Source: a phage. From it: DNA of 64,000 nucleotides. Shown here piece by piece: positions 14,153 to 43,089 of the stretch. The notes under the pieces are model-generated. The model had not been told where the DNA came from, ran no database searches, and saw nothing but the letters and a program-made list of their open reading frames with translations. Location of the stretch: sequence record PZ049338.1. One strand, given 5' to 3'. Each line of letters starts with the position of its first letter. Positions within the stretch are counted from its first letter, which is position 1. The position numbers and the translations under genes were made by a program.

Positions 14153-14163
14153 GGAGAGATTAG

Positions 14164-14718
14164 ATGGCTACTAACGCCTACTTAGAGCGCATGAATCAGC
14201 TCCGTTCAGAAAGACGTCAAGTTAAAACTAGACAGTTAGAAGAAATGGGTGTTCCGATTCGTCGCCCAGAACAACATAGTAATTATAATGGTGCTTCACC
14301 TTCAGGTGTTCCTACTGGAGAAGCTCCTATCCCTCAAGAAGATGAATCATACAAAGACTCCCACTTCTATAATGCGTTTGAAGGTTATAAACAGCGTGAT
14401 GAGAAGTTTGGTAGTGTCATTGATGAACTCACTGAGTTAGCTACAGGTCTTCGTGAGCAGGTTAAACTAGGGTATATGCCTGAGCAAGTTGCTCGTCAAC
14501 GATTGACACAATTCGTAGGTGATACTCAACAGCAATTTGTACGTGCTAAGCCTCAACTGGAAAAAGAAAAGCAGAATAAGCAAATGGAAGCAATGTTAGG
14601 TGTATTAACTGGTGTTACACAGCAACAGCAGATGCAACAGCAGCAAGCCAAAGCTAACGAGCCTATCCCAGCAGAGGGTATTTCAGCAGAAGAAGCACAA
14701 CAAAGGGGAGGTTGGTAA
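14164..14718 (+). CDS. Hypothetical virion protein (184 aa), Q-rich C-terminus
   Basis: SD AAGGAGAGA; in structural operon. Confidence 0.4.
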   Translation: MATNAYLERMNQLRSERRQVKTRQLEEMGVPIRRPEQHSNYNGASPSGVPTGEAPIPQEDESYKDSHFYNAFEGYKQRDEKFGSVIDELTELATGLREQVKLGYMPEQVARQRLTQFVGDTQQQFVRAKPQLEKEKQNKQMEAMLGVLTGVTQQQQMQQQQAKANEPIPAEGISAEEAQQRGGW

Positions 14719-16361: not shown

Positions 16362-16376
16362 TATTGGAGATGATAA

Positions 16377-20387: not shown

Positions 20388-20466
20388 TTGTAAGGTGTTG
20401 CAAATTATGGCACTAATATAGTTTGTGACACACTTGCAGATTCACCGTACCTGAATAGGACTTGAT

Positions 20467-20598
20467 AATGAACGAATATAAACTTCCTTCGAACAAAGAT
20501 AAAGATTTCTGGGAACGTAATAACGAATCTCGGAAAGAAAGCAAAATCACCAAAAAGAAGGGAGATAAAAACCCTTGGACTCCATACCGGAGTTGGTA
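20467..20598 (+). CDS. Small basic ORF (43 aa)
   Basis: ATG ORF not in track (under 60 aa), immediately followed by terminator. Confidence 0.2.
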
Positions 20599-20608
20599 AC
20601 CTTTACAG

Positions 20609-20630
20609 GGCTCCTTCGGGAGCCTTTTTT
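20609..20630 (+). terminator. Rho-independent terminator with UUCG tetraloop
   Basis: GGCTCC-TTCG-GGAGCC followed by TTTTTT. Confidence 0.55.
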
Positions 20631-20649
20631 CGTTTATGGGGTATAAGAT

Positions 20650-21075
20650 TTGAAAAAGAGATATTACAAGAAGAAAGAAGGGTCGTTGAAAGGGACTGGA
20701 TACGACTCCTTTTTAGAGAAGCATGTTCATGAGAACATAATCCCGAATGCCAGATTCCATGATAAGGGAGATAAGGTGTCTTATACCGTTTCTCATACTT
20801 ACGAACCTGATTTCGTATTAGAGAAAGATGGTAAGACTTACTTAGTGGAAACTAAGGGTAGGTTCAGGGATTCAAATGAGGCTAGGAAGTACATCTTTAT
20901 TAGAGAATTCTTACCAGAGAATACTGAATTGGTATTTGTATGGGAGAAGTCCAACACCATATTCCCGTTCGCCAAAAAGAGGAAGGATGGGACTAAAGCA
21001 ACTCATGAGGAATGGGCCATTAAGAACGGCTTTCGGAACTGGGTTCAAACATCATTCACAGAGGAAGTGTTATGA
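20650..21075 (+). CDS. T7 endonuclease I-like Holliday-junction resolvase
   Basis: Matches recalled T7 gp3 motifs: HTYEPDFVL...LVETKG...IFIREF; TTG start in track, true start uncertain. Confidence 0.7.
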   Translation: MKKRYYKKKEGSLKGTGYDSFLEKHVHENIIPNARFHDKGDKVSYTVSHTYEPDFVLEKDGKTYLVETKGRFRDSNEARKYIFIREFLPENTELVFVWEKSNTIFPFAKKRKDGTKATHEEWAIKNGFRNWVQTSFTEEVL

Positions 21076-21491
21076 TTAAGCATATAGCTACATGGGTTAA
21101 ACAAGTTGTATTTGGGGCTGGTATTGTGGCAGTCCTTGGTCTATTCCCACTAGGTTACAAATATGGGGTAGATTCTGAACACATTGCTCAACGAGCAGAG
21201 TATACCAAAGAACTTGAAACCTTAGTCAAACGTTATGACCAGACTCAAGGTATCTTATCAGCATTGGCTCAGGGTCAGCAAGTTTCATTGACCCTTTTAC
21301 GCACTAAACAGGATGGAGTGAAAAGTGACGTTAATAAGTACAATCAAAGCAGTAATGCTCGTATTTCTTGTCTTGATGATGAGTGGTTGCGGGTCTACAA
21401 CAACTCCATTACCGGAGATAAGCATAAATCCGGAAGCAAGGTTGATGGAAAGACCACAGGAAAGGTTAACACTGGAGATGGGAGCAAATAA
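21072..21491 (+). CDS. i-spanin (Rz-like), N-terminal TM anchor
   Basis: N-terminal hydrophobic helix then coiled periplasmic domain; ATGA overlap with upstream stop; contains embedded o-spanin ORF. Confidence 0.6.
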   Translation: MIKHIATWVKQVVFGAGIVAVLGLFPLGYKYGVDSEHIAQRAEYTKELETLVKRYDQTQGILSALAQGQQVSLTLLRTKQDGVKSDVNKYNQSSNARISCLDDEWLRVYNNSITGDKHKSGSKVDGKTTGKVNTGDGSK

Positions 21492-21603
21492 TGGTAATGC
21501 TCTTTCTGTTATCACTGAGAATAACATGATATGTGAAAGAGAGATTAATAAACTCACTGATTTGCAAGATTGGGTGGGGTTATTGAAACATGTGCCTAAA
21601 TAA
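21355..21603 (+). CDS. o-spanin (Rz1-like lipoprotein), overlapping i-spanin in a different frame
   Basis: Signal peptide ending in lipobox-like LMMSGC, mature Cys; classic overlapped Rz/Rz1 arrangement. Confidence 0.6.
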   Translation: MLVFLVLMMSGCGSTTTPLPEISINPEARLMERPQERLTLEMGANNGNALSVITENNMICEREINKLTDLQDWVGLLKHVPK

Positions 21604-21609
21604 GATATA

Positions 21610-21634
21610 GGGGAATATTAATTTCCCCTTTTTT
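21610..21634 (+). terminator. Rho-independent terminator ending the late block
   Basis: GGGGAA-tattaat-TTCCCC followed by TTTTTT. Confidence 0.6.
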
Positions 21635-21676
21635 CTTAAAAGTTTGTAAGATAATTAGAAATGTTAAGTAGAATTA

Positions 21677-21698
21677 CTCTTTATATATGTGGATTAAC
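21677..21698 (-). promoter_or_regulatory. Copy A of conserved 22-bp promoter-like motif, pointing leftward into the 21610-21634 hairpin
   Basis: Reverse complement reads GTTAATCCACATATATAAAGAG. Confidence 0.3.
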
Positions 21699-21831
21699 TC
21701 CACCCTATATAATAATAAAGACTGAGGTTAATTATCAGTGAAATAATAACTAGAACCAGTGGAATCATCCAATTGTCAAGAAAATTAAGTATTGACAGTG
21801 CTATCTTGTTCATACTTTGTAATCCACTCCT

Positions 21832-22551
21832 CTATCGTTGGGGGGGTTTAACTTTCTCGATAGCTGCTCTAAAGATTGCAGCACGGTGGAGTTTATCAGA
21901 TATTTCCGGAGAACGTAACTTAGTCTTTGGAACAATAATTGAGACATAAGCACTATCAGCAGAATCGAAAGGATATTGACTAATTGCCCTAACATCTAAA
22001 GCCCTCAAACCATGAATCTTCACAGGATATTTCTTTGTGATGTAAATGTGCTTGAAAACCTCGTCCATTCGCTCTCTCCAAGCCGGGGAGCGTATAGAAC
22101 GGTGTCTACCAACACAACCTATGGCTACACGTTCAAACCTCTCACACAGCCTCTCAAGACGTTCTAGAGACCCTTCGGAGTGCCATACAGGTACTGCCTT
22201 GCTTAGTAGGTGTTCTGGTAACTTCGCTAGGAGCGCGTCGTTTTCTTCATCAGTGCCGCCAATAACGTCAGGTACAATAAACCACCCGATACGAGCATAA
22301 AGAGACTCAACCCACTTATAATACTTATTCCAATGTTTATCCCAGTCAACTATCTCACCTTTACGATTCGATTTCATCCAAACAGAGAAAGCACCATTAT
22401 CAAGAATCAAGTCACAATCTAATTGAACTATACGCTTAATCTGGTCAGGGCGATGGAAAGAAACAAGGGCTCCACCTCCACGGTAGAGTGCCTTGATTAG
22501 CTCATCACCTTCACCACCCCAAATAGGGCCACCATGAAAGTGTATTGTCAT
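21832..22551 (-). CDS. Hypothetical protein (239 aa)
   Basis: First gene of leftward block; no confident domain assignment. Confidence 0.4.
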   Translation of the reverse strand: MTIHFHGGPIWGGEGDELIKALYRGGGALVSFHRPDQIKRIVQLDCDLILDNGAFSVWMKSNRKGEIVDWDKHWNKYYKWVESLYARIGWFIVPDVIGGTDEENDALLAKLPEHLLSKAVPVWHSEGSLERLERLCERFERVAIGCVGRHRSIRSPAWRERMDEVFKHIYITKKYPVKIHGLRALDVRAISQYPFDSADSAYVSIIVPKTKLRSPEISDKLHRAAIFRAAIEKVKPPQR

Positions 22552-31351: not shown

Positions 31352-31555
31352 TTAGAGGTCACTATTCAGTAAGTCCACCGCATATTCATAACCTGACCAG
31401 TTATCAACACCTGCTGCACGAAGGGCTTCAAGAAACTCAAGTTCCTCGTCTGCTTCTTCTAAAGTATTAACGATGCCTTGTAACTCTTCAGTCATCTTAA
31501 CATCATTACCTTCGATGTACTTCTTTAAAATAGATGATAACATTAGATTGTGCAT
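31352..31555 (-). CDS. Hypothetical acidic protein (67 aa)
   Basis: ORF. Confidence 0.3.
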   Translation of the reverse strand: MHNLMLSSILKKYIEGNDVKMTEELQGIVNTLEEADEELEFLEALRAAGVDNWSGYEYAVDLLNSDL

Positions 31556-31758
31556 CCATCACAAGTTAAGTCACCCATAAGTGACAGGGAGAGTAGGCGA
31601 GATTGTTCGTCACTGTAAAGCTGGTCAATCTCTTCTTTGAGTTTAGCCAGTTCAGTGAAATTAATCAACTGACCGTGTTCGAGGCAGTCCGTCTTAAATA
31701 CAAAGAGTGCTTCAACTTCTGTTGAATCTTCATCTGTATATTTATCAATATATTCCAT
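31543..31758 (-). CDS. Hypothetical protein (71 aa)
   Basis: ORF. Confidence 0.3.
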   Translation of the reverse strand: MEYIDKYTDEDSTEVEALFVFKTDCLEHGQLINFTELAKLKEEIDQLYSDEQSRLLSLSLMGDLTCDGCTI

Positions 31759-32523: not shown

Positions 32524-32583
32524 TATTCCACACCTGCAATTAATGTTACTGTATATTTACGACCACCTCTAACATCTTCAACC

Positions 32584-32988
32584 TTAGTTACAATACCTTC
32601 CATTATGATTCCTTAATCGGTAATAAATTGCGGATTCAGTTCTGCCCAATCGTGCAGCTATAGTTTTAACAGGAACACCTGCTCTCCACATCTCAAAGCA
32701 ATCGTCATGACTTTCTCTGTAACGATTTACGTTTGTTTCAGTAGCATGTTCAGAGCCTTCAAGAATTTCAAGGTGTTCTGGGTTACAGCAAGCCCTGTTC
32801 CTGCATTTGTGATTAATCTCACAACCTTCAGGGATTGAGCCGTTAAGTTCTTCCCACACTAACCTGTGGTACATCACCCAAGTATTTTTACCAATATTCT
32901 TGCGGAAGTACCCATCACTGTTAAGTTTATGAGAAACGGGGATTTTACACCCCGTATTAGTAATATCAAATACAAGTTTCTTTGGCAT
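32584..32988 (-). CDS. HNH homing endonuclease directly downstream of DNA polymerase gene
   Basis: HRLVWEE...EINHKCRNRACCNPEHLE motif plus C-terminal HTH; ATG 3 nt after polymerase stop. Confidence 0.6.
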   Translation of the reverse strand: MPKKLVFDITNTGCKIPVSHKLNSDGYFRKNIGKNTWVMYHRLVWEELNGSIPEGCEINHKCRNRACCNPEHLEILEGSEHATETNVNRYRESHDDCFEMWRAGVPVKTIAARLGRTESAIYYRLRNHNGRYCN

Positions 32989-32990
32989 AT

Positions 32991-34835
32991 TCAATGGGTA
33001 TGGAACCAGCTTGCACCAAGCATTGAGTCTGAAGCTAATGGACATTCCATATTCAACGACTCTCCAGCTTTTTTAACACACTGGTCAATCAACTCTCTTA
33101 ATTTAACTACATCTTTGGTGGCGCAAGTGAACTGCATCTCATCGTGCATCATAATGACCTGATTTGCAAACAGCTTATCACGTTTAACCCAAGAAATCAG
33201 GTAGCAGTCAGCAATCTTCATAACAATAGAACCAGCAGACTGGAGCATTGTATTCAGTGCTTTATGGGTCATCACCTCACCGGAGTTAGGGTCACGACGC
33301 ATAATCAACTTACGACCATCAATAGCTGGAACCCAACCATGTTTCGCTGCGAATGTTTGTACCCACTCCATAAGAACTGGAATACAAGGACATTCTTTCA
33401 GGAACTTATCACGAGCTTCCTGACCTTCGGCAACACCACCACCTAACTGAGCACCTAAGTTCGCATTACCAGCGCCATAGAGGAAAGCATAGATAAACGT
33501 CTTAGCCTGCTTACGAGTTGCTAGACCTGCAAGCTTCTGGTTGTGCGAGTGGATATCACCATTCAGAAGAACTTCACGATACTCTAGAGCGGAGTCGAGT
33601 GCTTTCTGATAATACTCAGCCTCTCGTGTCTTACCAGCTTCGAGAGCTTCCTCAAGCAGCATACGAGATACAGCAATGAGGTAGTGAGTAAGCATACGAA
33701 GTTCAAGACCTGCACCATCCCCACCTACGAAAGCCTGTTGGCCCTCTGGGATAAGGTATGTACAGTGTCCTACATCTTCCCACTTCTTACCATTGAACTC
33801 CTGCATGATGTTAGTCAGTGGCTTACGACGAAACTTGCCAGACTCAATCATTTTCTTGGTGAGCTTAGGAACCAGAATGCCACGACGACCCATCTCAGAG
33901 TCACAGTAGTCACCCTTAAATAAGTGACGACATTCTTCACCCAGCAACGCACCAGCAGCAGGAATGTTAACAATTGTCTTGTGACGCATACGAGCAGTTG
34001 GTGTAGCGCATGGGTTGGCTTCACCAGACAGCTTACCATCAGCACGTACTTGAGCAATCAAACCTTCTAAGAGGGAACGACGATGCGCAAGCTGCATACG
34101 ATGCTTCAAGAGCGTCAATGCCTGACTCTCATCCTCACCAACTGAATCAAAAGAATCATCAGTGATTTGTGGAGAAGTCGGCCAGAACTGTTTCAGTAGA
34201 AGTTTCTTCTTAATGGCATCGAAGTTAGGAACCTTTCTGCTCAGGTCGAAACCTAAAGCAACCAGAATTGCCTTCATGTAACCCTTCGTCTGGTCACGGA
34301 AGTGTGTATCAATAAACCCGTTAACAGCGTTGGTGAATGCAAGTCTGTCCTCAGAATCACACTGTTCATTGATGAACTTAGCGTATGAGGTTTTCTCCAA
34401 ACGTTTGCGATACTGCCAAACTTGGAAAGGTGTCTTCTTCTCGTTCCACTCAGTAGGAACCCAACCCATATCCATCATGACTTTCTTCAGTCGAGATGTT
34501 TTACCAGGGTCGAATGGTGTATACCATACAGCGGAGAATGGCCCACTAACATCTTCAGAAGAGAGTCCATGAATGTCCATGTACTTCTGAACGAATGCTT
34601 TAGGTTGACCGTTCAACTTAAACGGAGCTTTATACTCTGAACCCTTGTGCATCATAGGAGGAAGCAAAGGGATTAATTCGAGGTCAATCTTGAGGATACG
34701 CTCATTCAATGAGTGAACCAACCAAGAAGCACCACGCTTATCAAAGTTACAGCCATGTTTCCACTGATTCGAAATCAAATCAGCGACTTTCTGTTCTAAC
34801 AGGAATGGTTTAGTCCAATCCGGCTTGATATCCAT
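32991..34835 (-). CDS. DNA polymerase, family A (T7 gp5-like) polymerase domain only
   Basis: Motif B RKQAKTFIYAFLYGAG, motif C MMHDEMQF, GAGLELRMLTHY; lacks the 3'-5' exonuclease domain. Confidence 0.85.
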   Translation of the reverse strand: MDIKPDWTKPFLLEQKVADLISNQWKHGCNFDKRGASWLVHSLNERILKIDLELIPLLPPMMHKGSEYKAPFKLNGQPKAFVQKYMDIHGLSSEDVSGPFSAVWYTPFDPGKTSRLKKVMMDMGWVPTEWNEKKTPFQVWQYRKRLEKTSYAKFINEQCDSEDRLAFTNAVNGFIDTHFRDQTKGYMKAILVALGFDLSRKVPNFDAIKKKLLLKQFWPTSPQITDDSFDSVGEDESQALTLLKHRMQLAHRRSLLEGLIAQVRADGKLSGEANPCATPTARMRHKTIVNIPAAGALLGEECRHLFKGDYCDSEMGRRGILVPKLTKKMIESGKFRRKPLTNIMQEFNGKKWEDVGHCTYLIPEGQQAFVGGDGAGLELRMLTHYLIAVSRMLLEEALEAGKTREAEYYQKALDSALEYREVLLNGDIHSHNQKLAGLATRKQAKTFIYAFLYGAGNANLGAQLGGGVAEGQEARDKFLKECPCIPVLMEWVQTFAAKHGWVPAIDGRKLIMRRDPNSGEVMTHKALNTMLQSAGSIVMKIADCYLISWVKRDKLFANQVIMMHDEMQFTCATKDVVKLRELIDQCVKKAGESLNMECPLASDSMLGASWFHTH

Positions 34836-34938
34836 ATCTACCTCAACATTACTAGCCGTACACCTGACGAATCAGTTGGGAGTTAAGTCGGCATTCGTAG
34901 TTATCCTTGCCGCCTCCGAAGAGGCAGCGATGTAGGTC

Positions 34939-35205
34939 TTAGTTAGCCCACTTAGTAAATCGACCGGTATTCAAATCACGTACAACGACGTTGGTTCGGA
35001 ACAACTCTTTGAGTTCTTCTTTAGCCTTCATCAGTTTTTGTTGTTTGTAAATCTTACCAACCTGAATACGTGTAGGTTCGTCATTCGTTTCAAACAGAAT
35101 CTTAATGTCCTTGCTGACAAGCTCAGGAAGAGTCCTATAAACTGCTGAAGATATGAAACGACCTTTGGTAGTGTATTCACGGTACTCGATAACTAATTTA
35201 CTCAT
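34939..35205 (-). CDS. Hypothetical protein (88 aa)
   Basis: ORF. Confidence 0.35.
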   Translation of the reverse strand: MSKLVIEYREYTTKGRFISSAVYRTLPELVSKDIKILFETNDEPTRIQVGKIYKQQKLMKAKEELKELFRTNVVVRDLNTGRFTKWAN

Positions 35206-35429
35206 TTTGCTGCTCCATTAGCATTAGGGAAATAACGTTCATAATTTCTTGCGTGGTTAGTTTCCAACTTAGCCACACATTGACGACAGAATGGATACAA
35301 TCCACTGTCAGAGTTCGCAGATTCATCGAAGTGATAAACCCCACGAAGTTGTTTACAGCACTTGCAAGTGATGCACTGGCCGTAAGTTGTTCTTGCGTAA
35401 TTGTTAATTAAACGCTTAACCATGTCCAT
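35202..35429 (-). CDS. Cys-rich zinc-finger protein (~75 aa)
   Basis: CITCKCCKQ...CRQC; ATG at 35429 with GGAG SD; track start 35456 is GTG inside the terminator hairpin. Confidence 0.4.
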   Translation of the reverse strand: MDMVKRLINNYARTTYGQCITCKCCKQLRGVYHFDESANSDSGLYPFCRQCVAKLETNHARNYERYFPNANGAAK

Positions 35430-35444
35430 TAGGACTCCAGAGAC

Positions 35445-35468
35445 AAAAAAGGCCACCCGTAGGCAGCC
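35445..35468 (-). terminator. Rho-independent terminator
   Basis: On - strand GGCTGCC-TACG-GGTGGCC hairpin followed by TTTTTT. Confidence 0.45.
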
Positions 35469-35565
35469 TTGTGTTAACCTTCACCCCAGCCCGTATTAGA
35501 ATCCATCGAATTCATCATACGTCCCAGTTCTCTTCACCAGCAGTGTAACCAATTGCATTCATTCG

Positions 35566-35922
35566 TTAATCCTTCTTCTTCTTGCTCTTAGGCTTGCTCA
35601 CAGGTAAACGGGACTTAGCGCCCTTACGTCCACCTGCGGCCTTACCTTTTGAGCTACCAGACTTACCACCAGCAGACATATTCTCGCTGGCATCACGTAA
35701 ACGCAAATTACTGCGGTCATTGGAGCCACCATCTTTAACTGTCTTCTTGTGGTCAACGTGTACAGATGTTGGCAATTTTCTACCGATGCTCTTTTCCATC
35801 TCTCGACGGGCACGGTGTCGCATTGCATCCTTAGACTTCTTACCAACGCCGGTATCACCACGCTTTATAGCAGTGATACGTTCTTGTGCGTAGTTTCGTA
35901 CATAACCCGGTGAACTAGGCAT
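35566..35922 (-). CDS. Small basic HNH-family nuclease
   Basis: VHVDHKKTVKDGGSNDRSNLRL HNH signature; GGAGG SD. Confidence 0.5.
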   Translation of the reverse strand: MPSSPGYVRNYAQERITAIKRGDTGVGKKSKDAMRHRARREMEKSIGRKLPTSVHVDHKKTVKDGGSNDRSNLRLRDASENMSAGGKSGSSKGKAAGGRKGAKSRLPVSKPKSKKKKD

Positions 35923-35934
35923 TCAACCTCCATG

Positions 35935-36150
35935 TTAATCAGAGCATGAACGGGTGACCCCTCGCTCTCCAACTGGTGCGCGTTCTTTTGCTTGCCAGTC
36001 TTGTGCGAGTTTTTGATAATTCTCAGCTTCTTCCACATTGCCATTTGCATATGCTTCATCACGCATTGAAAAACACCAGTCAACCGTTGATGCGTTACTC
36101 TTGTCCATTATAATCACCCCATTCGTATTCATATTCGTCGAAACGTTCAC
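35935..36150 (-). CDS. Hypothetical acidic protein (71 aa)
   Basis: ORF; preferred over overlapping 35865-36083 ORF. Confidence 0.3.
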   Translation of the reverse strand: MNVSTNMNTNGVIIMDKSNASTVDWCFSMRDEAYANGNVEEAENYQKLAQDWQAKERAPVGERGVTRSCSD

Positions 36151-36265
36151 CCGGCATTGTTTCTTTACAACACGGGCATATGTAATAGTGTGAATAGTCC
36201 TCAGTGCTTACGCGTTTCATGGGAACAAAACACCAATCACATTCAATACTTTTCACACCGTACAT
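36095..36265 (-). CDS. Small zinc-ribbon protein (~56 aa)
   Basis: CDWC...CPCC; internal ATG at 36265 with AAGGTA SD avoids overlap with upstream gene. Confidence 0.3.
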   Translation of the reverse strand: MYGVKSIECDWCFVPMKRVSTEDYSHYYICPCCKETMPGERFDEYEYEWGDYNGQE

Positions 36266-36275
36266 AATGAATACC

Positions 36276-36545
36276 TTATTTAAGACTCTTCTCAACTCTA
36301 CGAGTAATATACTCACGAGCTACTTTAGGATTACATTCCATTAAGAGGTCTTCAACATCTTCGTTGATTTCACTCTTCGTTACAGTTAACTGATGAAGAT
36401 ACTTACCCTGAATAATCATTGCAATCTGCAGAGCTTCATCAAAACTTGATTGATTGACAGCCTCTTGTGAGGCCATAACTGATTGGATGATTTGGTTTAC
36501 ATCAAATTCAACCAAGGAGCCATCATCTTTCTGATATTTTACCAT
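36276..36545 (-). CDS. Hypothetical protein (89 aa)
   Basis: ORF. Confidence 0.35.
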   Translation of the reverse strand: MVKYQKDDGSLVEFDVNQIIQSVMASQEAVNQSSFDEALQIAMIIQGKYLHQLTVTKSEINEDVEDLLMECNPKVAREYITRRVEKSLK

Positions 36546-36553
36546 TCACTACC

Positions 36554-37003
36554 TCAGCGACCAGAGCGTACAAAGTATGCCAGCTTGTCGATGGCAGCTA
36601 CTAATTCTTGCAAGATGCTAACAGTCACATCATCCTCTGTATCAAACAGACGAGCCACATGACCAGTTATTGTTTCCAGAGTTTCGACCATATCAGACAA
36701 CATCTCTGAACTGTCGTAGCTGTCAACACCTTCACTGAACCAGCGAACTTCATGATAATACCCTGCCGTTGATTTGACAGGATGCTGTAGGCCACGTAGC
36801 CGCTCAGCAACAATATCAGACCATTCATCAGCAACAGTATCAATATCTTCGAACAGTTTATGGAGACTTCCAAAGTTGGCTCCGGTTACGTTCCAATGAT
36901 AATTCTCTGCCTTGATGGACAGTAATTTGAGGTTGGCAACCACTGGATTCAATGGGTGCAGATTATCTTCACCACTTTGACGTGACGGTCTTGGAGATAA
37001 CAT
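36554..37003 (-). CDS. Dps/ferritin-like protein
   Basis: HWNVTGANFGSLHKLFEDI...DIVAERLRGL resembles Dps family ferroxidase/DNA-binding signature. Confidence 0.5.
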   Translation of the reverse strand: MLSPRPSRQSGEDNLHPLNPVVANLKLLSIKAENYHWNVTGANFGSLHKLFEDIDTVADEWSDIVAERLRGLQHPVKSTAGYYHEVRWFSEGVDSYDSSEMLSDMVETLETITGHVARLFDTEDDVTVSILQELVAAIDKLAYFVRSGR

Positions 37004-37659
37004 TACTCAGTTTCCTTAATAGTTGCTTTCAAGGCCGACCAAGCGACCGGATAAAGGTCAGTCATGATTGCATCAAGTTGCTGTGCAAACAAACGAACCT
37101 CGTATTGAGCATGAGTGCTCGAACGTTGACGGTATACTTCAAACCAACCATACAGTGAACCAGTCCATACCCATTCTGTAACCATCCCTTGCGGGAGTAC
37201 AAAGCGAGCCTGCTCTGGTGCAATGAACTTAATCAGCTTATCGTAGGCAAGTAATGCTGCTTCATATGCGTAATTATACAACACAAGAGCTTCATATTTC
37301 TTAACACCTTCAAGAAGTACACCACCGCCATCATGCAAGTTATCAGGTCGTGCAAAGATTTCCTTAGGAATGAACACTTCGACATTACCATCTTTATATC
37401 GACGGCTCATTTCGTTCCAAGAAAATCCAACCTGATGCTTACCTAGCTGGCGAGCGATTGCGATTGGGGCTTTACAGCGAAGGGTCACTGTTGCGTGCCG
37501 GAATGGGGTTACATGACGTTCACGAGCTAAGAACTTGACCAAGCGAACATCTCGCTCATTCAACTCACCTTCTCGTGTTACACCATAAGATACTCGTGCT
37601 GCGTTAACAACTGAAGTATCATCACCCATTAAATCTACTAATTGCGCTTCAATAGTCAT
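37003..37659 (-). CDS. ThyX-like flavin-dependent thymidylate synthase homolog (non-canonical motif)
   Basis: AARVSYG N-terminal and QLGKHQ...S...SRRY region resembling the ThyX RHR-x-S motif with RHR replaced by KHQ. Confidence 0.45.
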   Translation of the reverse strand: MTIEAQLVDLMGDDTSVVNAARVSYGVTREGELNERDVRLVKFLARERHVTPFRHATVTLRCKAPIAIARQLGKHQVGFSWNEMSRRYKDGNVEVFIPKEIFARPDNLHDGGGVLLEGVKKYEALVLYNYAYEAALLAYDKLIKFIAPEQARFVLPQGMVTEWVWTGSLYGWFEVYRQRSSTHAQYEVRLFAQQLDAIMTDLYPVAWSALKATIKETE

Positions 37660-37673
37660 CCTTGACCCTTATA

Positions 37674-37883
37674 TTAATATTCGATTTTACTTAAAATGAA
37701 AATAGCACCATCAGGTGTTATATTAGCCTTATGCATTGACACTTTAATGTTATGCTTACGGGCAGGTATGAGGTTTTTCAACCCTGCACGGGCTTCTTTT
37801 CTTGTTTTATAAGTCATTAACAATGGTAAGTCGTCTGACTTATCTTTATTAAGAAGCTTGAGTACCCAAATCCATTGAGACAT
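37674..37883 (-). CDS. Hypothetical protein (69 aa)
   Basis: ORF. Confidence 0.3.
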   Translation of the reverse strand: MSQWIWVLKLLNKDKSDDLPLLMTYKTRKEARAGLKNLIPARKHNIKVSMHKANITPDGAIFILSKIEY

Positions 37884-37892
37884 GATTGTACC

Positions 37893-38078
37893 TTAAATAT
37901 GTTCGAAATCTTTACGAGTGGCTTCACGAATATAGAAGCCTTTATAGCCATGACTTGTTGCTAAATCATGTGCTATCTTCTTTGTAGCACAGATAGCCAT
38001 AAGGCAACCCTGCACGACAATAACATGGGCACGTAGTTCACGTTCCATTAACTGTATTCCATTTCTGTTGATTGACAT
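37893..38078 (-). CDS. Hypothetical protein (61 aa)
   Basis: ORF. Confidence 0.3.
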   Translation of the reverse strand: MSINRNGIQLMERELRAHVIVVQGCLMAICATKKIAHDLATSHGYKGFYIREATRKDFEHI

Positions 38079-38223
38079 TCATTACATCGGGTTTTCTTTA
38101 CAGTAATCTCGACATATTGTTTGTTCTTCCCACGAGAAGGAGAGCCTTTCTTAAGCTCTCGAATCTTCGTATAGGAAATGTTAAGCTCTATTCCAGAGCA
38201 GGTTGGACATCTCACTATTCACC

Positions 38224-38466
38224 TCAGTAATTGTAAGGGTCGTAGTCCAAAGAATCAAACCCGTAATCTGAACTATCAAGATAGCGACCCGGAAAACCCA
38301 TTCGCTGATAAGTTGGTTCGCTAGGGATGGTGTTACCACGAGTGATTTTCTTAACTTGGTCAGAGGAGAACAAAGCTAATCCTTCAGAGGTTCGGGCCGA
38401 AGCCCGTTCCCCTTTCTTGACAACCTTACCCTTCTTTAACCAATCTTCGAAGGAGCGGTATTGCAT
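38224..38466 (-). CDS. Hypothetical protein (80 aa)
   Basis: ORF. Confidence 0.3.
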   Translation of the reverse strand: MQYRSFEDWLKKGKVVKKGERASARTSEGLALFSSDQVKKITRGNTIPSEPTYQRMGFPGRYLDSSDYGFDSLDYDPYNY

Positions 38467-38468
38467 GG

Positions 38469-38684
38469 TTATTTACCCCAATGTTCAACAAACTGTTGAA
38501 ACACTTTACGGTCGAATGTGAAATTACGAGCAATATTACATTCAACAAAAGTAGAGCCCATATAGTCTATAGACAATTCATCAGTGTGACCGTGAACTTG
38601 GATAAGGCGTTTAATCTTATCCTTCTCCTTCCGAGGTAACATACGGAATGCTTCCTGTATGTCTGTAATATGCTTAATTTTCAT
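38469..38684 (-). CDS. Hypothetical protein (71 aa)
   Basis: ORF. Confidence 0.3.
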   Translation of the reverse strand: MKIKHITDIQEAFRMLPRKEKDKIKRLIQVHGHTDELSIDYMGSTFVECNIARNFTFDRKVFQQFVEHWGK

Positions 38685-38950
38685 CAGCGAGTCTCTTCTA
38701 AGTCTCGGTTAACACCCACATTACCATCAAGGTTAGCCTGCACTTGAGCAGAAATAACAATCAGGTTCTTAGGGTAGGAGAGGGTTGTTTTACCAGAGCT
38801 AAGCACATGGATTCGAACTTTCAGAGGAGTAACATCCACAACTCGGGCTATTTCTAGCCCTTGGTTGTATTTACCATTACCCCAGACAACAATATCGTCC
38901 AGTCGAATCACCCGGTGCAGCTTATCACGGTGATTGTGTGACAGTAACAT
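38684..38950 (-). CDS. Hypothetical protein (88 aa)
   Basis: ORF. Confidence 0.3.
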   Translation of the reverse strand: MLLSHNHRDKLHRVIRLDDIVVWGNGKYNQGLEIARVVDVTPLKVRIHVLSSGKTTLSYPKNLIVISAQVQANLDGNVGVNRDLEETR

Positions 38951-39240
38951 TAATCAAGACCTCGCACTGTAGAGAGGATGAAATTACGCAGCATGTCTTC
39001 AGTCTGCATCCCTGTTTTGAAACCTACTGGCTTCTTGTTTTCATCAAACACGATGATGGTTGGGACACCACGGATGCCAAAGGTACGAGCTTCTTCGCGT
39101 ACTCCGTCGTCTTCGATGCTACGGGATTCAAAAGTAAATCCCTCTTCTTCCAGTTCATCTTGAACTTTCTTGAAGATAGGCTCGATTGCTTTGCAAGGAG
39201 CACAGGAAGTACCAAAGTATTTAATTACAGAGTAAGCCAT
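38950..39240 (-). CDS. Thioredoxin-like protein (CAPC active site)
   Basis: GTSCAPCK active-site motif and GVPTIIVF cis-Pro loop region. Confidence 0.65.
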   Translation of the reverse strand: MAYSVIKYFGTSCAPCKAIEPIFKKVQDELEEEGFTFESRSIEDDGVREEARTFGIRGVPTIIVFDENKKPVGFKTGMQTEDMLRNFILSTVRGLD

Positions 39241-39998
39241 TATTCACCACCTTCGTTGTCTAATTCCATTGCTTTAACCACTGCCTTACAGAAGCCGCTT
39301 CGAACGATATCGTCAGAAGTACCTTCAACAACAGCAGCATAGTCGCCCAGAGCGTGACGGTTGATAAAATCAATCGCCCAATCCAGACCATTTTCACCAC
39401 CCATATCATTCTGCTCGGAATCCCCGATACAGAACAGCTTAGAGTTCTCACCCAAGCGAGTCATGATTGAGTACATTTCATCAGGTTTGGTATTCTGAGA
39501 TTCATCCACAATGACCACAGCGTTCTCGAAAGAACGACCACGAACATATTCCAGTGGTACGAATTCAATGTTACCAAGACCCATCTGGCACTCATAGAAG
39601 CCATGACCGTAACGACCTTTGATTACATCTACCATAGGCATCAGATACGGTTCAAACTTCTCTTTCAGAGTGCCGGGCAGGAGACCAAGAGATTTACCCA
39701 TACCAACCGAAGGTCGGCTCAGTACAATCTTCTGAATCTTGTTCTGCTTAAGCCAATCTGCGGCTTGACTCATGAGTACAAAAGTCTTACCGCAACCAGC
39801 AGGAGCGTCAACAAACACAACCTGAGCTTCCATCATGCTAGTATGAAGTTCACGTTGGAACTCATTCTTAGGGATGATAGGCTTGATAATGTTTGCTGTC
39901 TCAAACTCACGACGAGCGTGTTGGCTATTACGACGAACAGTTTCTTCGCGCAGTGCTTCACGACGTAATTCACGACGACTAGGCTTAAGTTTCTTCAT
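39240..39998 (-). CDS. phoH: PhoH-like ATPase
   Basis: Walker A DAPAGCGKTF and PhoH-like downstream motifs. Confidence 0.75.
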   Translation of the reverse strand: MKKLKPSRRELRREALREETVRRNSQHARREFETANIIKPIIPKNEFQRELHTSMMEAQVVFVDAPAGCGKTFVLMSQAADWLKQNKIQKIVLSRPSVGMGKSLGLLPGTLKEKFEPYLMPMVDVIKGRYGHGFYECQMGLGNIEFVPLEYVRGRSFENAVVIVDESQNTKPDEMYSIMTRLGENSKLFCIGDSEQNDMGGENGLDWAIDFINRHALGDYAAVVEGTSDDIVRSGFCKAVVKAMELDNEGGE

Positions 39999-40602
39999 TA
40001 TTCAACTCCTCAGTGTGACCAGAGCCAGCATATGCTTGAGTAGCACCCTGCTGACCGTTGTAGTTACCTTTAACAGCGTAAGAGTCGTTACCAACGTCTT
40101 CGTGTTCAAAGAATACCATCTGACCAATGCGCATACCGGGTTTGATAAGGAGTCGGTGATACTTGTTCATATTCTTGAACTCCATAGTAAGCTGTGCGCC
40201 ATGCCAACCGGCATCTGCCCAACCTGCCATCATGTGTTCAAGGAAGCAACGAGCCACTGTAGAACGTAATACAAACTGACTGGAGATAGTATTTGGTAAG
40301 TTAAATGTCTCAACAGAGTGAGCCAAGAAACACTGACCCGGTTCGATAATCAAACCAGTCTCAGGGATAATCTGTTTGATGAACTTAGGAGATTGCTTTG
40401 CAGCAATATCAATCGGTTCAGAATGAACACCCGGAACAGCTTCAGCCATACCAGAAAGGTCTTGGTATTGCCATGCAGGGGCTTCGACCAGAATCTCGTT
40501 ACCAATACGGATATCAATACTCGCTGAGTTTACGTTCTCATGCAGAGCGTCAATAACATTTTCATCAATCAGTTGGTGCAATCGTGTAGAAGAGAGTAAC
40601 AT
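39985..40602 (-). CDS. dCTP deaminase / dUTPase-superfamily enzyme
   Basis: AGWADAGWHGAQLTMEF motif typical of dCTP deaminase family. Confidence 0.55.
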   Translation of the reverse strand: MLLSSTRLHQLIDENVIDALHENVNSASIDIRIGNEILVEAPAWQYQDLSGMAEAVPGVHSEPIDIAAKQSPKFIKQIIPETGLIIEPGQCFLAHSVETFNLPNTISSQFVLRSTVARCFLEHMMAGWADAGWHGAQLTMEFKNMNKYHRLLIKPGMRIGQMVFFEHEDVGNDSYAVKGNYNGQQGATQAYAGSGHTEELNNEET

Positions 40603-40785
40603 TAACTATCCTTAGTCTTCGTCGTTGTCGTTAAAGCGGAATGGGTCGGAGCATTCAATTACCCCAGCGTCTTCGTCTAAGCGAAAGGTCATTCCTGCAA
40701 TTTCAAAATCGGAGTCCATCATGTGTTATTCCTTAACAAGAGGCCACACTTATTATAGTGACCTCTAGAGAGTATCCTTACACCG

Positions 40786-41283
40786 TTATTTGTAAAAGAT
40801 TCTGCTATGTGGAGGATTCAACCAATCAAATCCAGCCAGATTGCAAAGATGCTCATACAAAGCAACGGTAACATTTACGTCCTGCTCACAGTAAGTGAAC
40901 ATGTCTTCAGTGAACACATCCCAAGCATTCTCTGTCTTGCCATAATCGCCTTTATAGATACCAAGCTCACGACCCCATGAATCCAGTGAATGACCACCGG
41001 GGCGGTCAGGCTGGAGCATACGGCTGAGAACTAAGGTATCAAAGGTGTTCATGTGGAATTCAAGACCACTGAGTTTAGCCAGAGTCGGGAGGTCATAATC
41101 AATGATGTTATGGCCAACCGTTAAATCGAAGGACATTAAATCCTTCATATACTTGTCTAAATCTTGTGGTCTATAACCCTGTCGCTCTTTCGGTTGACTA
41201 GGGTCAATAATCCAGGCACAGTGAAATTTGGAGACATCAATATAGAGATTGTTAGTCTCTATATCTGTACAAGCAATCTTCAT
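40786..41283 (-). CDS. DNA polymerase 3'-5' exonuclease domain (T7 gp5 N-terminal homolog), separately encoded
   Basis: Exo I DIETNNL, Exo II VGHNIIDYDLPTL, Exo III YCEQD; N-terminus closely parallels T7 DNA polymerase. Confidence 0.8.
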   Translation of the reverse strand: MKIACTDIETNNLYIDVSKFHCAWIIDPSQPKERQGYRPQDLDKYMKDLMSFDLTVGHNIIDYDLPTLAKLSGLEFHMNTFDTLVLSRMLQPDRPGGHSLDSWGRELGIYKGDYGKTENAWDVFTEDMFTYCEQDVNVTVALYEHLCNLAGFDWLNPPHSRIFYK

Positions 41284-41292: not shown

Positions 41293-43089
41293 TTAGAATG
41301 GTCGACTATCATCACGACTGACTTCATCAGAGTCAGGCTCCTCTCCCGGGATAGAGAAAGGATTCTTAGGGTCATACTCATCAGCAGTACGCTGTCTCAA
41401 TCGACCTGTAACTGGGTTATAGGAAGTTGGGACAATACCTGTCTGACCGAAGTTACGGTCTTTCAGGAGACGAATCTGAGACAAGTTACGAGCATCACCA
41501 TCTGCCTGCTTGTTACGCTCAAAGCCCAGAATTAACTGGGAGAATCGCATAAGAGCACGCGAACCTGTGAACTGCACTTCCTGAACCTGACCACCTTCCT
41601 CGTGCGGAGCACCAGTTTTAGGTGGGTTCAAGTGACTGAATACGAAACATGTGAACTCCAGTTCGTTACACAGTCCAGCCAGTTCTACAGCAATACGAGC
41701 AACTTCGGTGTTAATCTCAGTCGCTGATAAGTGTGATACCAGTGCGGTGATGTTATCTAAGAAGATGAACTTCACACCATGCTCCACAACCCAGAAACGC
41801 ATACAGCGTTTGATATCTTCCCAATCATTCTGACCAAAGTTCCGGTAAAGGAACAGATGGCCATCATACTTCAGAGCTTCACTCTTAAGCAGTTCAGGGT
41901 CGAACTCAACATCTGGGCGATGGAAAGGTATATTAGCAGATTTACCTGCGATGTTTTTGATTGTGTTACCTACAGTCTCTTCCAACATGAAAGCGCCCAC
42001 TTTCTCTTTGTGGACGTTAATGAGGTGAGCACTAAGTTCGTGAGCAAGCAGTGTTTTACCACCACCCACACCACCACCAATTGCAATCACTTCACCATAT
42101 CGGAGACCGAAGGTTAACTCTGTAAGACCTTCCCAAGGGAATGATAAACCCCACTCAGGCTTCTTCAGCGCATCTTCCAGACACTCAGCTACAGTCGTTG
42201 AGCCAGCCGGAGATTCTTTTGCAGCATTGAAGCGTAAGCAGTTATTAAGTTCGAGGTCACGACCGTCCATGAGGAGGTCATTAGCGTCCTTAATTGGAGC
42301 ACCATCTTTACGGAACCCTTTAGGGATTCGGGCAATCTTAATGTTCGGATACATCGCTCGAATCTTGTTCACAGCATCATCACCAGCTTCATCGTTATCC
42401 ATGCAGACAACAACTTCAGCGAATGATTCTACGAATGCACGGTCACGAGAGAACGCAGCCGCTGCTGATTTCGAGCCATCCGGTAAAGAAACACATGCTG
42501 GTTTGTATGTACTCTTAGAGTTCTCTGTCAATACCTGAAAACCAGACATTGCACTGAGTTCGTCTTCAAATACAAACAACTTACCTGTGTACACATCACC
42601 AAGACGTGCTTGGGACATACCGAAGAAACTACAACCTGATGCTGCACCTACAGCATAAAAACCTTTAGGTTCTAAGGTGCGAACTTTGTAAGCACGGATT
42701 GCTCCGTCCTTTTCCTTCGGGTAAAACTGAGAGATAGGTTCCCGGTTAGTGGATGAAAGACCAATACGAACACCAAAACGTTCGGCAACTTCTTTCTTCA
42801 CACCACGAATGGTGCAGTTCTGAATAGGAAGCTCTTGGACTTCCGCTAAACGTTCTTGTACTTCTTCCTCGGTCAGTTCACGGAATTCATGACGAACTCC
42901 TTCCCACTTCTCGCGGTTACCTTCTTCAACCTGTTCGTAAAAACCATCACGACTACAGTAAACCCACTGCTCGCCGGTCTCAACATTTTCCCAATGCTGA
43001 AGATGGTTGCCAGTTCGGTCATGGCCTGCTGCCGTACAGGTTGGACATGCAGAATCACCAAGGATTCTTTTGTTTCCATAAACTTTCAT
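41293..43089 (-). CDS. Primase-helicase (T7 gp4-like)
   Basis: N-terminal zinc finger CPTC...C, TOPRIM region, DnaB-type Walker A GGGVGGGKT; acidic C-terminus ending RPF. Confidence 0.85.
   Translation of the reverse strand: MKVYGNKRILGDSACPTCTAAGHDRTGNHLQHWENVETGEQWVYCSRDGFYEQVEEGNREKWEGVRHEFRELTEEEVQERLAEVQELPIQNCTIRGVKKEVAERFGVRIGLSSTNREPISQFYPKEKDGAIRAYKVRTLEPKGFYAVGAASGCSFFGMSQARLGDVYTGKLFVFEDELSAMSGFQVLTENSKSTYKPACVSLPDGSKSAAAAFSRDRAFVESFAEVVVCMDNDEAGDDAVNKIRAMYPNIKIARIPKGFRKDGAPIKDANDLLMDGRDLELNNCLRFNAAKESPAGSTTVAECLEDALKKPEWGLSFPWEGLTELTFGLRYGEVIAIGGGVGGGKTLLAHELSAHLINVHKEKVGAFMLEETVGNTIKNIAGKSANIPFHRPDVEFDPELLKSEALKYDGHLFLYRNFGQNDWEDIKRCMRFWVVEHGVKFIFLDNITALVSHLSATEINTEVARIAVELAGLCNELEFTCFVFSHLNPPKTGAPHEEGGQVQEVQFTGSRALMRFSQLILGFERNKQADGDARNLSQIRLLKDRNFGQTGIVPTSYNPVTGRLRQRTADEYDPKNPFSIPGEEPDSDEVSRDDSRPF

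What the first reader, a model, noticed from the sequence alone, without database searches (positions are those of the whole stretch)
32584..41283. T7-like DNA polymerase split into separately encoded exonuclease and polymerase genes ~6 kb apart
The 3'-5' exonuclease domain (40786-41283; Exo I/II/III motifs, N-terminus near-collinear with T7 gp5) and the polymerase domain (32991-34835; motifs A/B/C) are distinct ORFs separated by ~20 genes. An HNH homing endonuclease (32584-32988) abuts the polymerase stop and a second HNH-like gene lies at 35566-35922. This suggests a historical split by mobile-endonuclease activity, with the functional enzyme presumably assembled in trans.
Basis: partly seen in the sequence, partly recalled or inferred. 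Interest (0 to 1): 0.65.

Follow-up and report, generated by a model that had tools for sequence, protein, structure and literature searches.

The report
Known two-gene phage DNA polymerase
This phage makes its T7-type DNA polymerase from two separate genes (proofreading part and copying part) about 6 kb apart. That layout is already annotated and described for its whole phage group, and the endonuclease gene next to the polymerase is a recent selfish insertion that did not cause the split.

Summary
ORF 40786-41283(-) is a complete T7-type 3'-5' exonuclease domain (T7 gp5 residues ~1-195). ORF 32991-34835(-) is the rest of the polymerase (T7 gp5 ~215-704). All catalytic motifs are intact, and 5,950 bp with 18 genes lie between them.

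It is not new. The window is a Grimontviridae phage ~96-97% identical to plasmid-dependent phages Lu221/Hi226. The same split, at the same linker position and always after the primase/helicase gene, occurs in 7-11, Kuravirus-like phages and Bruynoghevirus (LUZ24/PaP3). It is annotated as "DNA polymerase exonuclease subunit" / "part I/II" and stated in the literature.

The proposed cause is not supported for the HNH at 32584-32988.
- It is a 469-bp insertion absent from the closest relatives.
- It belongs to the HNH family found inside group I introns at polymerase motif C.
- It is flanked by a 150-nt divergent tract that starts exactly at that motif-C site (MMH|DE).
- It therefore looks like a free-standing homing endonuclease acquired long after the split.

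The second "HNH-like" gene (35566-35922) is a strongly conserved core gene lying between the two halves in every split lineage examined. It remains only a weak candidate relic of a splitting endonuclease. Trans assembly of the two halves is inferred, not shown.

The parts
41293..43089 (-). T7 gp4-like primase/helicase. It lies immediately upstream of the exo gene, the same order as primase/helicase followed by polymerase in T7-like phages.
   Evidence: Pfam DnaB_C and Toprim_2. The same primase/helicase-then-exo order is seen in L001, 7-11, IME267, BUCT640 and Delta. In unsplit Vibrio phage N4 the order is primase/helicase ... endonuclease VII, then full-length pol.
40786..41283 (-). 3'-5' proofreading exonuclease subunit of the split family A polymerase (165 aa; corresponds to T7 gp5 ~1-195).
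   Evidence: Compared with PKM.Lu.22.1 it shows 7 synonymous and 0 non-synonymous codon differences.
34836..40785 (-). 5,950-bp block of 18 genes between the two halves. It includes dCTP deaminase 39985-40602, PhoH 39240-39998, thioredoxin 38950-39240, ThyX 37003-37659, a ferritin/Dps-like gene 36554-37003 and an ATP-cone ORF 36276-36545.
   Evidence: Pfam results and the L001 annotation. The gap length differs between lineages: 1.66 kb in Delta, 6.7 kb in 7-11, 8.5 kb in IME267 and about 9.8 kb in L015.
35566..35922 (-). Conserved small HNH-like (D-H...N...N) basic protein of 118 aa. It is a core gene of the split-polymerase phages and its function is unknown.
   Evidence: phrog_4590 at E 1e-35, with only weak HNH signals. 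Identity is 77% to 7-11 gp068, 60% to IME267 gp052 and 60% to Delta_p39. The invariant residues are listed. The AF2 model shows a beta-beta-alpha core, and non-significant Foldseek hits are led by HNH domains.
32991..34835 (-). Polymerase subunit (614 aa; thumb, palm and fingers; corresponds to T7 gp5 ~215-704). It has no exo domain.
   Evidence: Motifs A, B and C are intact. Codons 1-563 show 21 synonymous and 4 non-synonymous differences from PKM.Lu.22.1.
32995..33146 (-). Divergent tract at the 3' end of pol (codons 564-614). It differs by about 29% in nucleotides from PKM.Lu.22.1, against 1.6% for the rest of the gene. It starts at the wobble base of His564 in motif C (MMH|DE). I infer it is a co-conversion or immunity tract.
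   Evidence: The boundary coincides with the intron/HNH insertion site in SU7, PE006 and 13a.
32526..32994 (-). 469-bp insertion relative to PKM.Lu.22.1 and PKM.Hi.22.6. It carries the free-standing HNH_3+HTH homing endonuclease gene (32584-32988).
   Evidence: for the insertion. Identity is 52% to the intron-encoded HNH of phage 13a gene 5 and 62-70% to the HNHs that interrupt pol in Kuravirus-like phages.

Best explanation
**What it is.** The region encodes a two-gene family A (T7 gp5-type) replicative DNA polymerase. This is an ancestral, fixed trait of the clade comprising Grimontviridae, the Kuravirus-like phages (Gordonclarkvirinae) and Bruynoghevirus.

**How the split looks.** An ancestral gene-5-like ORF downstream of the primase/helicase gene was broken once, in the surface linker between the exonuclease and polymerase domains. 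The exo gene stayed in place. Genes then accumulated between the halves, from 1.7 kb up to about 10 kb depending on lineage; here they are mostly nucleotide-metabolism genes.

**How it probably works (inferred).** The 165-aa exonuclease and the 614-aa polymerase are made separately and associate non-covalently into a T7 gp5-like enzyme that both polymerises and proofreads.

**The HNH gene at 32584-32988.** This is a separate, much later event. It is a free-standing homing endonuclease of the family that elsewhere sits inside group I introns at motif C of PolA genes. By analogy with known free-standing endonucleases, it cuts HNH-less alleles at or near MMH|DE. Repair from the HNH-bearing genome would then copy both the 150-nt stretch from the cut site to the stop codon and the endonuclease gene itself. 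That would explain the sharply bounded divergent tract.

**The gene at 35566-35922.** It is a conserved small HNH-fold protein of unknown role. It is not a mobile element.
For: **Shown: the split itself**
- Homology, motif integrity and complementary coverage of T7 gp5 by the two ORFs.
- The same breakpoint in window, 7-11, IME267 and Delta.
- The same primase/helicase-then-exo synteny in all of them, with a variable gap.
- The similarity ranking of the two halves is congruent: LAh_9 about 52/53%, Kuravirus-like 47-50%, Bruynoghevirus about 41%. T7-likes come next, at 35-41% for exo and 27-29% for pol.
- Both halves are under purifying selection.
- The literature states that the separation is common to the group (PMC9965538) and names 'DNA polymerase part I/II' in LUZ24-likes (PMC3890496).
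- PHROG families are named 'DNA polymerase exonuclease subunit'.

**Shown: the HNH at 32584-32988**
- It is a clean 469-bp insertion absent from the two closest relatives.
- There are 43 differences in the adjacent 150 nt, then 1 in the next 250 nt. The first difference is the His564 wobble base.
- Homologous HNH genes interrupt pol exactly at H|DE in SU7 and PE006.
- Another homologue lies in a group I intron at WVH|DEIQ in T7-like phage 13a.
- Two further HNH_3 genes show presence/absence differences between window and PKM.Lu.22.1 within 10 kb.

**From the literature**
- Free-standing endonucleases cut at a distance and co-convert the intervening sequence, and can collaborate with introns (PMC2988022).
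- An AlphaFold complex of an independently split T7-like PolA superposes on an unsplit homologue (PMC10201439).
Against: - Physical association of the two polypeptides, and proofreading in trans, have not been tested for any member of this clade. I found no biochemical paper.
- The mechanism of the original fission is unknown. No unsplit sister lineage closer than the T7-likes was found.
- No donor phage carrying the same HNH together with the same 150-nt tract was found in the phage collection. The best hit is about 70% nucleotide identity.
- The cleavage site of this HNH is inferred from homologues and from the tract boundary. It has not been measured.
- A terminator-like hairpin at 35470-35449 lies between the halves. 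They may therefore not be co-transcribed, though such hits were not enriched over shuffles.
Confidence: 0.85

Rival explanations
1. An HNH endonuclease gene inserted into the exo-pol linker of the ancestral polymerase gene and split it, as mobE split nrdA in phage Aeh1. The conserved HNH-like gene at 35566-35922 would be its domesticated descendant.
For: - The HNH-like gene lies between exo and pol in every split lineage checked: window, L001, 7-11, IME267, Delta, ZRK32 and L015.
- In Bruynoghevirus it starts 31 nt before the exo stop codon, that is, at the junction.
- About 250 phage records carry it, against 247 records with a split-type pol.
- Precedents exist for genes split by homing endonucleases with function kept (PMC2988022).
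Against: - Any clade-specific core gene of the replication module would show the same co-distribution.
- The protein is a minimal, highly conserved HNH-like domain, 57-77% identical across lineages where pol is only 41-53% identical. It has no recognisable DNA-targeting module, unlike homing endonucleases.
- Its HNH assignment is itself sub-threshold.
- Homologues occur next to packaging/structural genes with no PolA nearby (L017/L018; Pra-JY27).
- In the larger phages it is separated from both halves by other genes.
Confidence: 0.08
2. The split arose by a point event: a frameshift or nonsense mutation with a new start codon, as documented for S-SBP1-like cyanopodoviruses. Unrelated genes were inserted between the halves afterwards, and no endonuclease was involved. 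This concerns only the origin and is compatible with the main explanation.
For: - A documented precedent in T7-like PolAs, with adjacent exo and pol genes produced by a +1 frameshift (PMC10201439).
- The break lies in a variable surface linker. T7 has about 17 residues there that Vibrio phage N4 lacks.
- The gap size is graded among lineages, which fits stepwise accretion.
Against: No intermediate with adjacent or overlapping exo and pol genes was found in this clade. The event is too old for nucleotide traces to remain.
Confidence: 0.45
3. The exo protein no longer works with the polymerase. It would be a stand-alone DEDD nuclease used, for example, for host DNA degradation or recombination, and the pol subunit would replicate without proofreading.
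For: - The genes are 6 kb apart with a terminator-like hairpin between them.
- The library holds no biochemical evidence of a complex.
Against: - The exo gene is retained next to primase/helicase in all lineages, with all three Exo motifs invariant.
- The divergence of the two halves is congruent.
- PolA pol domains are reported to need the exo domain structurally (PMC10201439 discussion).
Confidence: 0.1
4. The split is a sequencing or assembly artefact, or the two parts are exons joined by an intron or intein. The UFV-P2 paper called them 'exons'.
For: - The window does contain one suspicious structural-gene deletion elsewhere.
- PMC3890496 speculated about introns.
Against: - The same two-ORF arrangement occurs in hundreds of independent genomes.
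- The gap holds 18 conserved protein genes, including dcd, phoH, trx and thyX.
- Rfam finds no intron in the window.
- Pfam finds no Hint/intein domain in either half.
Confidence: 0.01

Closest known systems
Split PolA of phiEco32/Kuravirus-like phages, Salmonella phage 7-11 (Grimontviridae) and LUZ24/PaP3-like Bruynoghevirus ('DNA polymerase exonuclease subunit' plus 'DNA polymerase'; 'part I/II')
   Same: Homologous halves: 41-53% identity for pol and 40-52% for exo. The breakpoint is the same, and the exo gene sits directly after primase/helicase in all of them. In the larger phages the gap carries the same kinds of gene (dcd, phoH, trx, thyX, HNH-like gene).
   Different: Only the gap length and content differ (5.95 kb here). 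This phage also has an extra free-standing HNH after the pol stop.
S-SBP1-like cyanopodovirus split T7-like PolA (Czernecki et al. 2023, PMC10201439)
   Same: A T7-like PolA divided into exo and pol genes at the inter-domain boundary. The thioredoxin-binding loop is about half length. A complex is inferred from AlphaFold modelling.
   Different: There the two genes are adjacent and overlapping, and were created recently by a traceable +1 frameshift. Here they are kilobases apart, the split is ancient, and no trace of the mechanism remains. The two events are independent.
I-TslI-type HNH endonucleases in group I introns of T7-like gene 5, and free-standing relatives that target intron insertion sites ('collaborative homing', Bonocora & Shub 2009; cited from PMC2988022 and PMC3428280, and otherwise from my own knowledge)
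   Same: The window HNH is 52% identical to the intron-encoded HNH of phage 13a gene 5. The divergence tract starts at the same H|DE position of motif C where the 13a intron and the SU7/PE006 insertions sit.
   Different: Here the gene is free-standing, placed after the stop codon, and no intron is detectable. Its cleavage activity and site have not been tested.
Genes split by homing-endonuclease insertion that keep their function (Aeh1 nrdA/mobE, T4 gene 60/mobA, phage 25 gene 43A/43B; PMC2988022)
   Same: An essential replication or nucleotide-metabolism enzyme is encoded in two cistrons whose products must reassemble.
   Different: In those cases the endonuclease gene sits in the break. Here the obvious HNH is at the far (3') end of pol and is recent, and the break is filled with 18 unrelated genes.

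Membership tests
Family A DNA polymerase, T7-like subfamily (polymerase domain) | Motif A (D..GLE), motif B (R...K...Y...YG, with Tyr at the T7 Y526 position) and motif C (HDE) | tested here: met
   DGAGLELR, RKQAKTFIYAFLYGAG and MMHDE align to the T7 gp5 motifs. Pfam DNA_pol_A scores 90 bits.
Family A DNA polymerase, T7-like subfamily (polymerase domain) | Thioredoxin-binding loop in the thumb (T7 residues 262-338) | tested here: inconclusive
   A loop is present at the homologous place but is about 30 residues shorter than in T7. It has the same length in phage Delta, whose gap holds only small genes annotated as hypothetical proteins. Binding of host or phage thioredoxin was not testable.
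DEDDy 3'-5' exonuclease domain of PolA (DNA_pol_A_exo1) | Exo I (DxE), Exo II (Nx3[F/Y]D) and Exo III (Yx3D) acidic motifs | tested here: met
   D7/E9, N59/D64 and Y131/D135 are invariant across split and unsplit homologues. Pfam scores 30 bits against a cutoff of 23.6. PDB hits are to T7 gp5 only.
Two-gene (split) PolA of phiEco32 / 7-11 / LUZ24-type phages | Separate exo ORF directly downstream of primase/helicase; pol ORF starting at the linker; no overlap or duplication of domains | tested here: met
Two-gene (split) PolA of phiEco32 / 7-11 / LUZ24-type phages | The two products form one enzyme | not testable with these tools
   Only a monomer structure predictor was available. I found no biochemical literature.
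Homing endonuclease (HNH_3 family, I-TslI-like), free-standing | Intact HNH_3 catalytic motif plus a DNA-binding module | tested here: met
   HNH_3 at 55 bits and HTH_23 at 19 bits. The protein is full length relative to the 131-aa 13a homologue.
Homing endonuclease (HNH_3 family, I-TslI-like), free-standing | Sporadic presence among near-identical genomes, with insertion next to a conserved target gene | tested here: met
   Absent from PKM.Lu.22.1 and PKM.Hi.22.6, which are 96-97% identical. It is a precise 469-bp insertion after the pol stop.
Homing endonuclease (HNH_3 family, I-TslI-like), free-standing | A co-converted or divergent flank running from the presumed cleavage site to the endonuclease gene | tested here: met
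   29% divergence over 150 nt against 1.6% elsewhere in the gene. The boundary is at H|DE, the insertion site of the homologues.
Homing endonuclease (HNH_3 family, I-TslI-like), free-standing | Site-specific cleavage of the endonuclease-less allele | not testable with these tools
   Requires an in vitro cleavage assay or mixed infections.
Group I intron / intein interrupting the polymerase | Intron ribozyme fold or Hint domain at the break or next to the HNH | tested here: not met
   No Rfam hit anywhere in the window, whereas 13a, SU7 and PE006 give Intron_gpI hits. Pfam finds no intein domain in either half.
HNH (beta-beta-alpha-Me) nuclease, for ORF 35566-35922 | Significant match to an HNH profile or structure, and catalytic His plus Asn/His metal ligands | tested here: inconclusive
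   Pfam HNH scores 19 bits, below the 21.4 cutoff. The PHROG HNH family scores E 2e-4. D57-H58, N72 and N81 are invariant. The AF2 model has a beta-beta-alpha core at pLDDT 70-88. The best Foldseek hit has E 0.2, although the top hits are HNH domains.

The most novel reading that the evidence does not exclude
The small, very conserved HNH-like protein (35566-35922) lies between exo and pol in every split lineage and abuts the exo gene in Bruynoghevirus. The most novel reading not excluded is that it descends from the endonuclease that broke the ancestral gene-5-type polymerase and has since been domesticated. It might now act as a replisome or DNA-processing partner of the two-piece polymerase.
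Probability: 0.08. Interest if true: 0.55.

Novelty: already known. Interest (0 to 1): 0.22.

Why it matters
The split itself adds nothing new. It is a fixed, annotated feature of a large phage clade.

- **Open biochemical question.** No enzyme from this widely separated two-gene PolA has been characterised. It therefore remains a convenient natural system for asking how a family A polymerase tolerates separation of proofreading from synthesis, and whether the two can be regulated independently.
- **Clean homing example.** The best-resolved by-product here is a natural case of a free-standing homing endonuclease with a nucleotide-sharp divergent tract starting at the motif-C intron-insertion site. 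The same endonuclease family occurs in three configurations across three phage groups: intron-borne in T7-likes, interrupting pol in Kuravirus-likes, and free-standing here. That supports the 'collaborative homing' picture.
- **Practical point.** Gene callers and pangenome tools should treat the exo and pol ORFs as one functional unit, and should treat the HNH genes as variable cargo.

Tried and rejected
- **Intron or intein remnants at the break.** Rfam at gathering threshold over the whole window found nothing. Pfam found no Hint domain. Rejected.
- **T7 gene 5.3 as a homologue.** It shows no similarity to either HNH gene.
- **A donor for the HNH plus divergent tract.** Distant blastn against the phage collection found nothing better than about 70% identity.
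- **Structure-based identification of the HNH-like protein.** The AF2 model is moderate (pLDDT 70). Foldseek against PDB gave no significant hit, only a suggestive clustering of HNH domains.
- **Strict linkage of the HNH-like gene to split PolA.** Contexts in unrelated contigs show it beside packaging/structural genes, so strict linkage is rejected.
- **Phage thioredoxin as a dedicated processivity factor.** The thumb loop is half length, and it is the same length in phage Delta, whose gap has only small genes annotated as hypothetical proteins. There is no support for the idea, and I did not pursue it.
- **Transcription signals.** Promoter and terminator scans gave no enrichment over shuffles.
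- **AlphaFold of an exo-pol complex.** Not attempted. Only a monomer predictor restricted to window sequences was available, and a fused chain would not be an independent test.
- **Reference not readable.** Bonocora & Shub 2009 (PMC2856452) is not held in the library. I cite it only through papers that reference it.

Full report
**What the window is.** All genes from about 22 kb to 64 kb are on the minus strand. Megablast places the region at 96-97% identity to phage PKM.Lu.22.1 (Lu221) and Salmonella phage PKM.Hi.22.6 (Hi226). It is more distantly related to Salmonella phage 7-11. Lu221 and Hi226 are plasmid-dependent podophages with elongated heads, of the family Grimontviridae (PMC10782986).

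**Checking the observation.**
- ORF 40786-41283(-) (165 aa) matches Pfam DNA_pol_A_exo1. In the PDB it matches only T7 gp5, residues 3-186, E 1e-14.
- ORF 32991-34835(-) (614 aa) matches Pfam DNA_pol_A and T7 gp5 residues 323-703, E 6e-36.
- I aligned both ORFs with T7 gp5 and the unsplit polymerase of Vibrio phage N4. The exo ORF covers T7 residues about 1-195. The pol ORF starts at about residue 215. There is no overlap and no missing domain.
- Exo I, II and III and motifs A, B and C are all intact.
- The two genes are 5,950 bp apart. By the Lu221 annotation 18 genes lie between them, among them dCTP deaminase, PhoH, thioredoxin, ThyX, a ferritin-like protein and an ATP-cone protein.

**The split is a conserved, known trait.**
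- Lu221 has the identical arrangement.
- RefSeq annotates 7-11 gp082 as "DNA polymerase exonuclease subunit" and gp063 as DNA polymerase I.
- Kuravirus-like phage IME267 has primase/helicase, then exo, then 8.5 kb, then pol.
- Bruynoghevirus phages BUCT640 and Delta have primase/helicase, then exo, then 1.7 kb of six small genes, then pol.
- A 103-kb metagenomic relative has a gap of about 9.8 kb.
- In unsplit T7-like Vibrio phage N4 the full-length polymerase follows primase/helicase and endonuclease VII. The exo gene of the split phages therefore occupies the ancestral polymerase position.
- The exo C-termini and pol N-termini of four split lineages align to the same linker position.
- tblastn ranks relatives identically for the two halves: LAh_9 at about 52/53%, Kuravirus-like at 47-50%, Bruynoghevirus at about 41%. 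T7-likes come next, at 35-41% for exo and 27-29% for pol. This fits one ancient fission followed by co-evolution of the halves and accretion of genes in the gap.
- Against Lu221, exo has 7 synonymous and 0 non-synonymous codon changes. Pol codons 1-563 have 21 and 4.
- PMC3890496 lists "DNA polymerase part I/II" in LUZ24-like phages. PHROGs has families named "DNA polymerase exonuclease subunit".
- Czernecki et al. 2023 (PMC10201439) described an independent, recent, frameshift-generated split of T7-like PolA in S-SBP1-like cyanophages. They modelled the two products as a complex that superposes on an unsplit enzyme.
- I found no biochemical study of the widely separated form. Trans assembly here remains an inference.

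**The HNH gene next to the polymerase stop codon.**
- It is a bona fide HNH_3 + HTH protein. Its ATG lies 2 nt after the pol stop.
- It is a clean 469-bp insertion (window 32526-32994) relative to Lu221 and Hi226, both of which have the same split polymerase.
- Divergence from Lu221 is 43 differences in the 150 nt next to the insertion (32995-33144), then one difference in the following 250 nt. Over pol codons 564-614 plus the stop codon that is 45 differences in 156 nt (29%), against 1.6% in codons 1-563.
- The first difference is the wobble base of the His564 codon in motif C. The window reads ATG ATG CAC|GAT GAG and Lu221 reads ATG ATG CAT|GAT GAG.
- Its homologues are informative. At 62-70% identity they interrupt the polymerase gene of the Kuravirus-like phages SU7 and PE006 exactly between H and DE of motif C. 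Both give weak group I intron hits; ECBP2 has a homologous HNH next to its pol gene.
- At 52% identity a homologue lies inside the group I intron of gene 5 of T7-like phage 13a. That intron splits WVH|DEIQ.
- The divergent tract in the window therefore begins at the insertion or target site used by this endonuclease family elsewhere.
- This is the signature expected of a free-standing homing endonuclease that cuts at a distance and is inherited together with the intervening sequence. That sequence also carries the resistant allele. The behaviour is reviewed in PMC2988022, including "collaborative homing".
- Rfam finds no intron in the window.
- Lu221 carries two other HNH_3(-AP2) genes that the window lacks, at positions corresponding to window 31552-31755 and 40003-40011. 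Endonuclease turnover in this species group is therefore rapid.
- None of these sits at the exo/pol break.

**The second, "HNH-like" gene (35566-35922).**
- Its HNH signal is sub-threshold: Pfam 19 bits against 21.4, PHROG HNH family E 2e-4. Its real family is phrog_4590, of unknown function.
- It is not sporadic. It is 77% identical to 7-11 gp068, 60% to IME267 gp052, 60% to Delta_p39 and 57% to the ZRK32 copy. It is thus more conserved than the polymerase itself.
- It is found in about 250 phage records, the same set that carries the split-type polymerase (247 records).
- An alignment of 31 family members shows invariant D57-H58, N72, N81, an RHRARR motif and a Gly/Lys-rich tail.
- An AlphaFold model (pLDDT 70-88 over residues 10-83) has a beta-beta-alpha core. 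Foldseek finds nothing significant, but the top hits are HNH domains.
- The gene always lies between exo and pol. In Bruynoghevirus it starts 31 nt before the exo stop.
- Against this, family members occur beside packaging and structural genes with no PolA nearby. The protein also lacks a targeting module, and any clade-specific replication-module gene would show the same co-distribution. I give this reading about 8%.

**Verdict.**
- The enzyme is most likely a non-covalent exo-pol heterodimer (inferred).
- The split is ancient, conserved and already annotated and published.
- The adjacent HNH is a recent homing endonuclease aimed at motif C, not the cause of the split.
- Novelty: already known. 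Interest is low. Two modest points of value remain: a sharply resolved homing footprint, and an uncharacterised conserved HNH-like gene.

**Seen in passing.**
- The window lacks 8,959 bp of structural genes present in Lu221. The junction at about 9896-9902 lies in a 7-nt microhomology. It fuses a truncated major capsid gene to the tail end of another gene. This points to a defective variant or an assembly error.
- It does not affect the polymerase finding, which rests on many independent genomes.

Noticed in passing
window 9896-9902 (chimeric ORF 9102-10067, + strand): The window lacks 8,959 bp that are present in the 97%-identical phage PKM.Lu.22.1 (record 13246-22204). The junction sits in a 7-nt microhomology (TGACTGG). 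It fuses a C-terminally truncated major capsid gene (SU10_MCP profile positions 6-252 of 292) to the last ~55 codons of another structural gene. About nine structural genes are removed, including the 'tail formation protein'. This is either a defective deletion variant or an assembly artefact.
   Followed up: partly
window 31552-31755 and 40003-40011 (compare L001 2506-2838 and L001 10991-11500): PKM.Lu.22.1 carries two additional HNH_3(-AP2) homing-endonuclease genes that are absent from the window. One lies between small early genes, and the neighbouring gene is partly replaced. The other lies between phoH and dcd. Together with the window-specific HNH after pol, that makes three endonuclease presence/absence differences within 10 kb between genomes that are ~97% identical.
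   Followed up: partly
window 35566-35922 (-): A small basic HNH-like protein (phrog_4590) is more conserved across Grimontviridae, Kuravirus-like phages and Bruynoghevirus (57-77% identity) than the polymerase is. It has an invariant D-H...N...N pattern, an RHRARR motif and a conserved Gly/Lys tail. Its function is unknown, and in other phage lineages homologues sit next to packaging genes.
   Followed up: yes
window 32991-34835 (-), pol residues ~138-222, 311-369 and 388-412: The polymerase subunit has three large insertions relative to T7 gp5. They are also present in 7-11 (the only other split phage included in that full-length alignment). The thioredoxin-binding loop is about half the length of T7's. 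A phage thioredoxin with a CAPC active site (38950-39240) is encoded between the two halves.
   Followed up: partly
window 36276-36545 (-): An 89-aa ORF consists only of an ATP-cone domain. A metagenomic relative (L015) encodes a full ATP-cone-NrdD anaerobic ribonucleotide reductase in the same gap region, two small genes downstream of the ferritin-like gene. The ORF may therefore be a relic or a stand-alone derivative of nrdD.
   Followed up: no
window 35449-35470 (-): This is the strongest terminator-like hairpin on the coding strand (9 bp stem followed by a T-run). It lies between the HNH-like gene and the genes preceding pol, so exo and pol may belong to different transcription units. Terminator-like hits overall were not enriched over shuffled sequence.
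   Followed up: no
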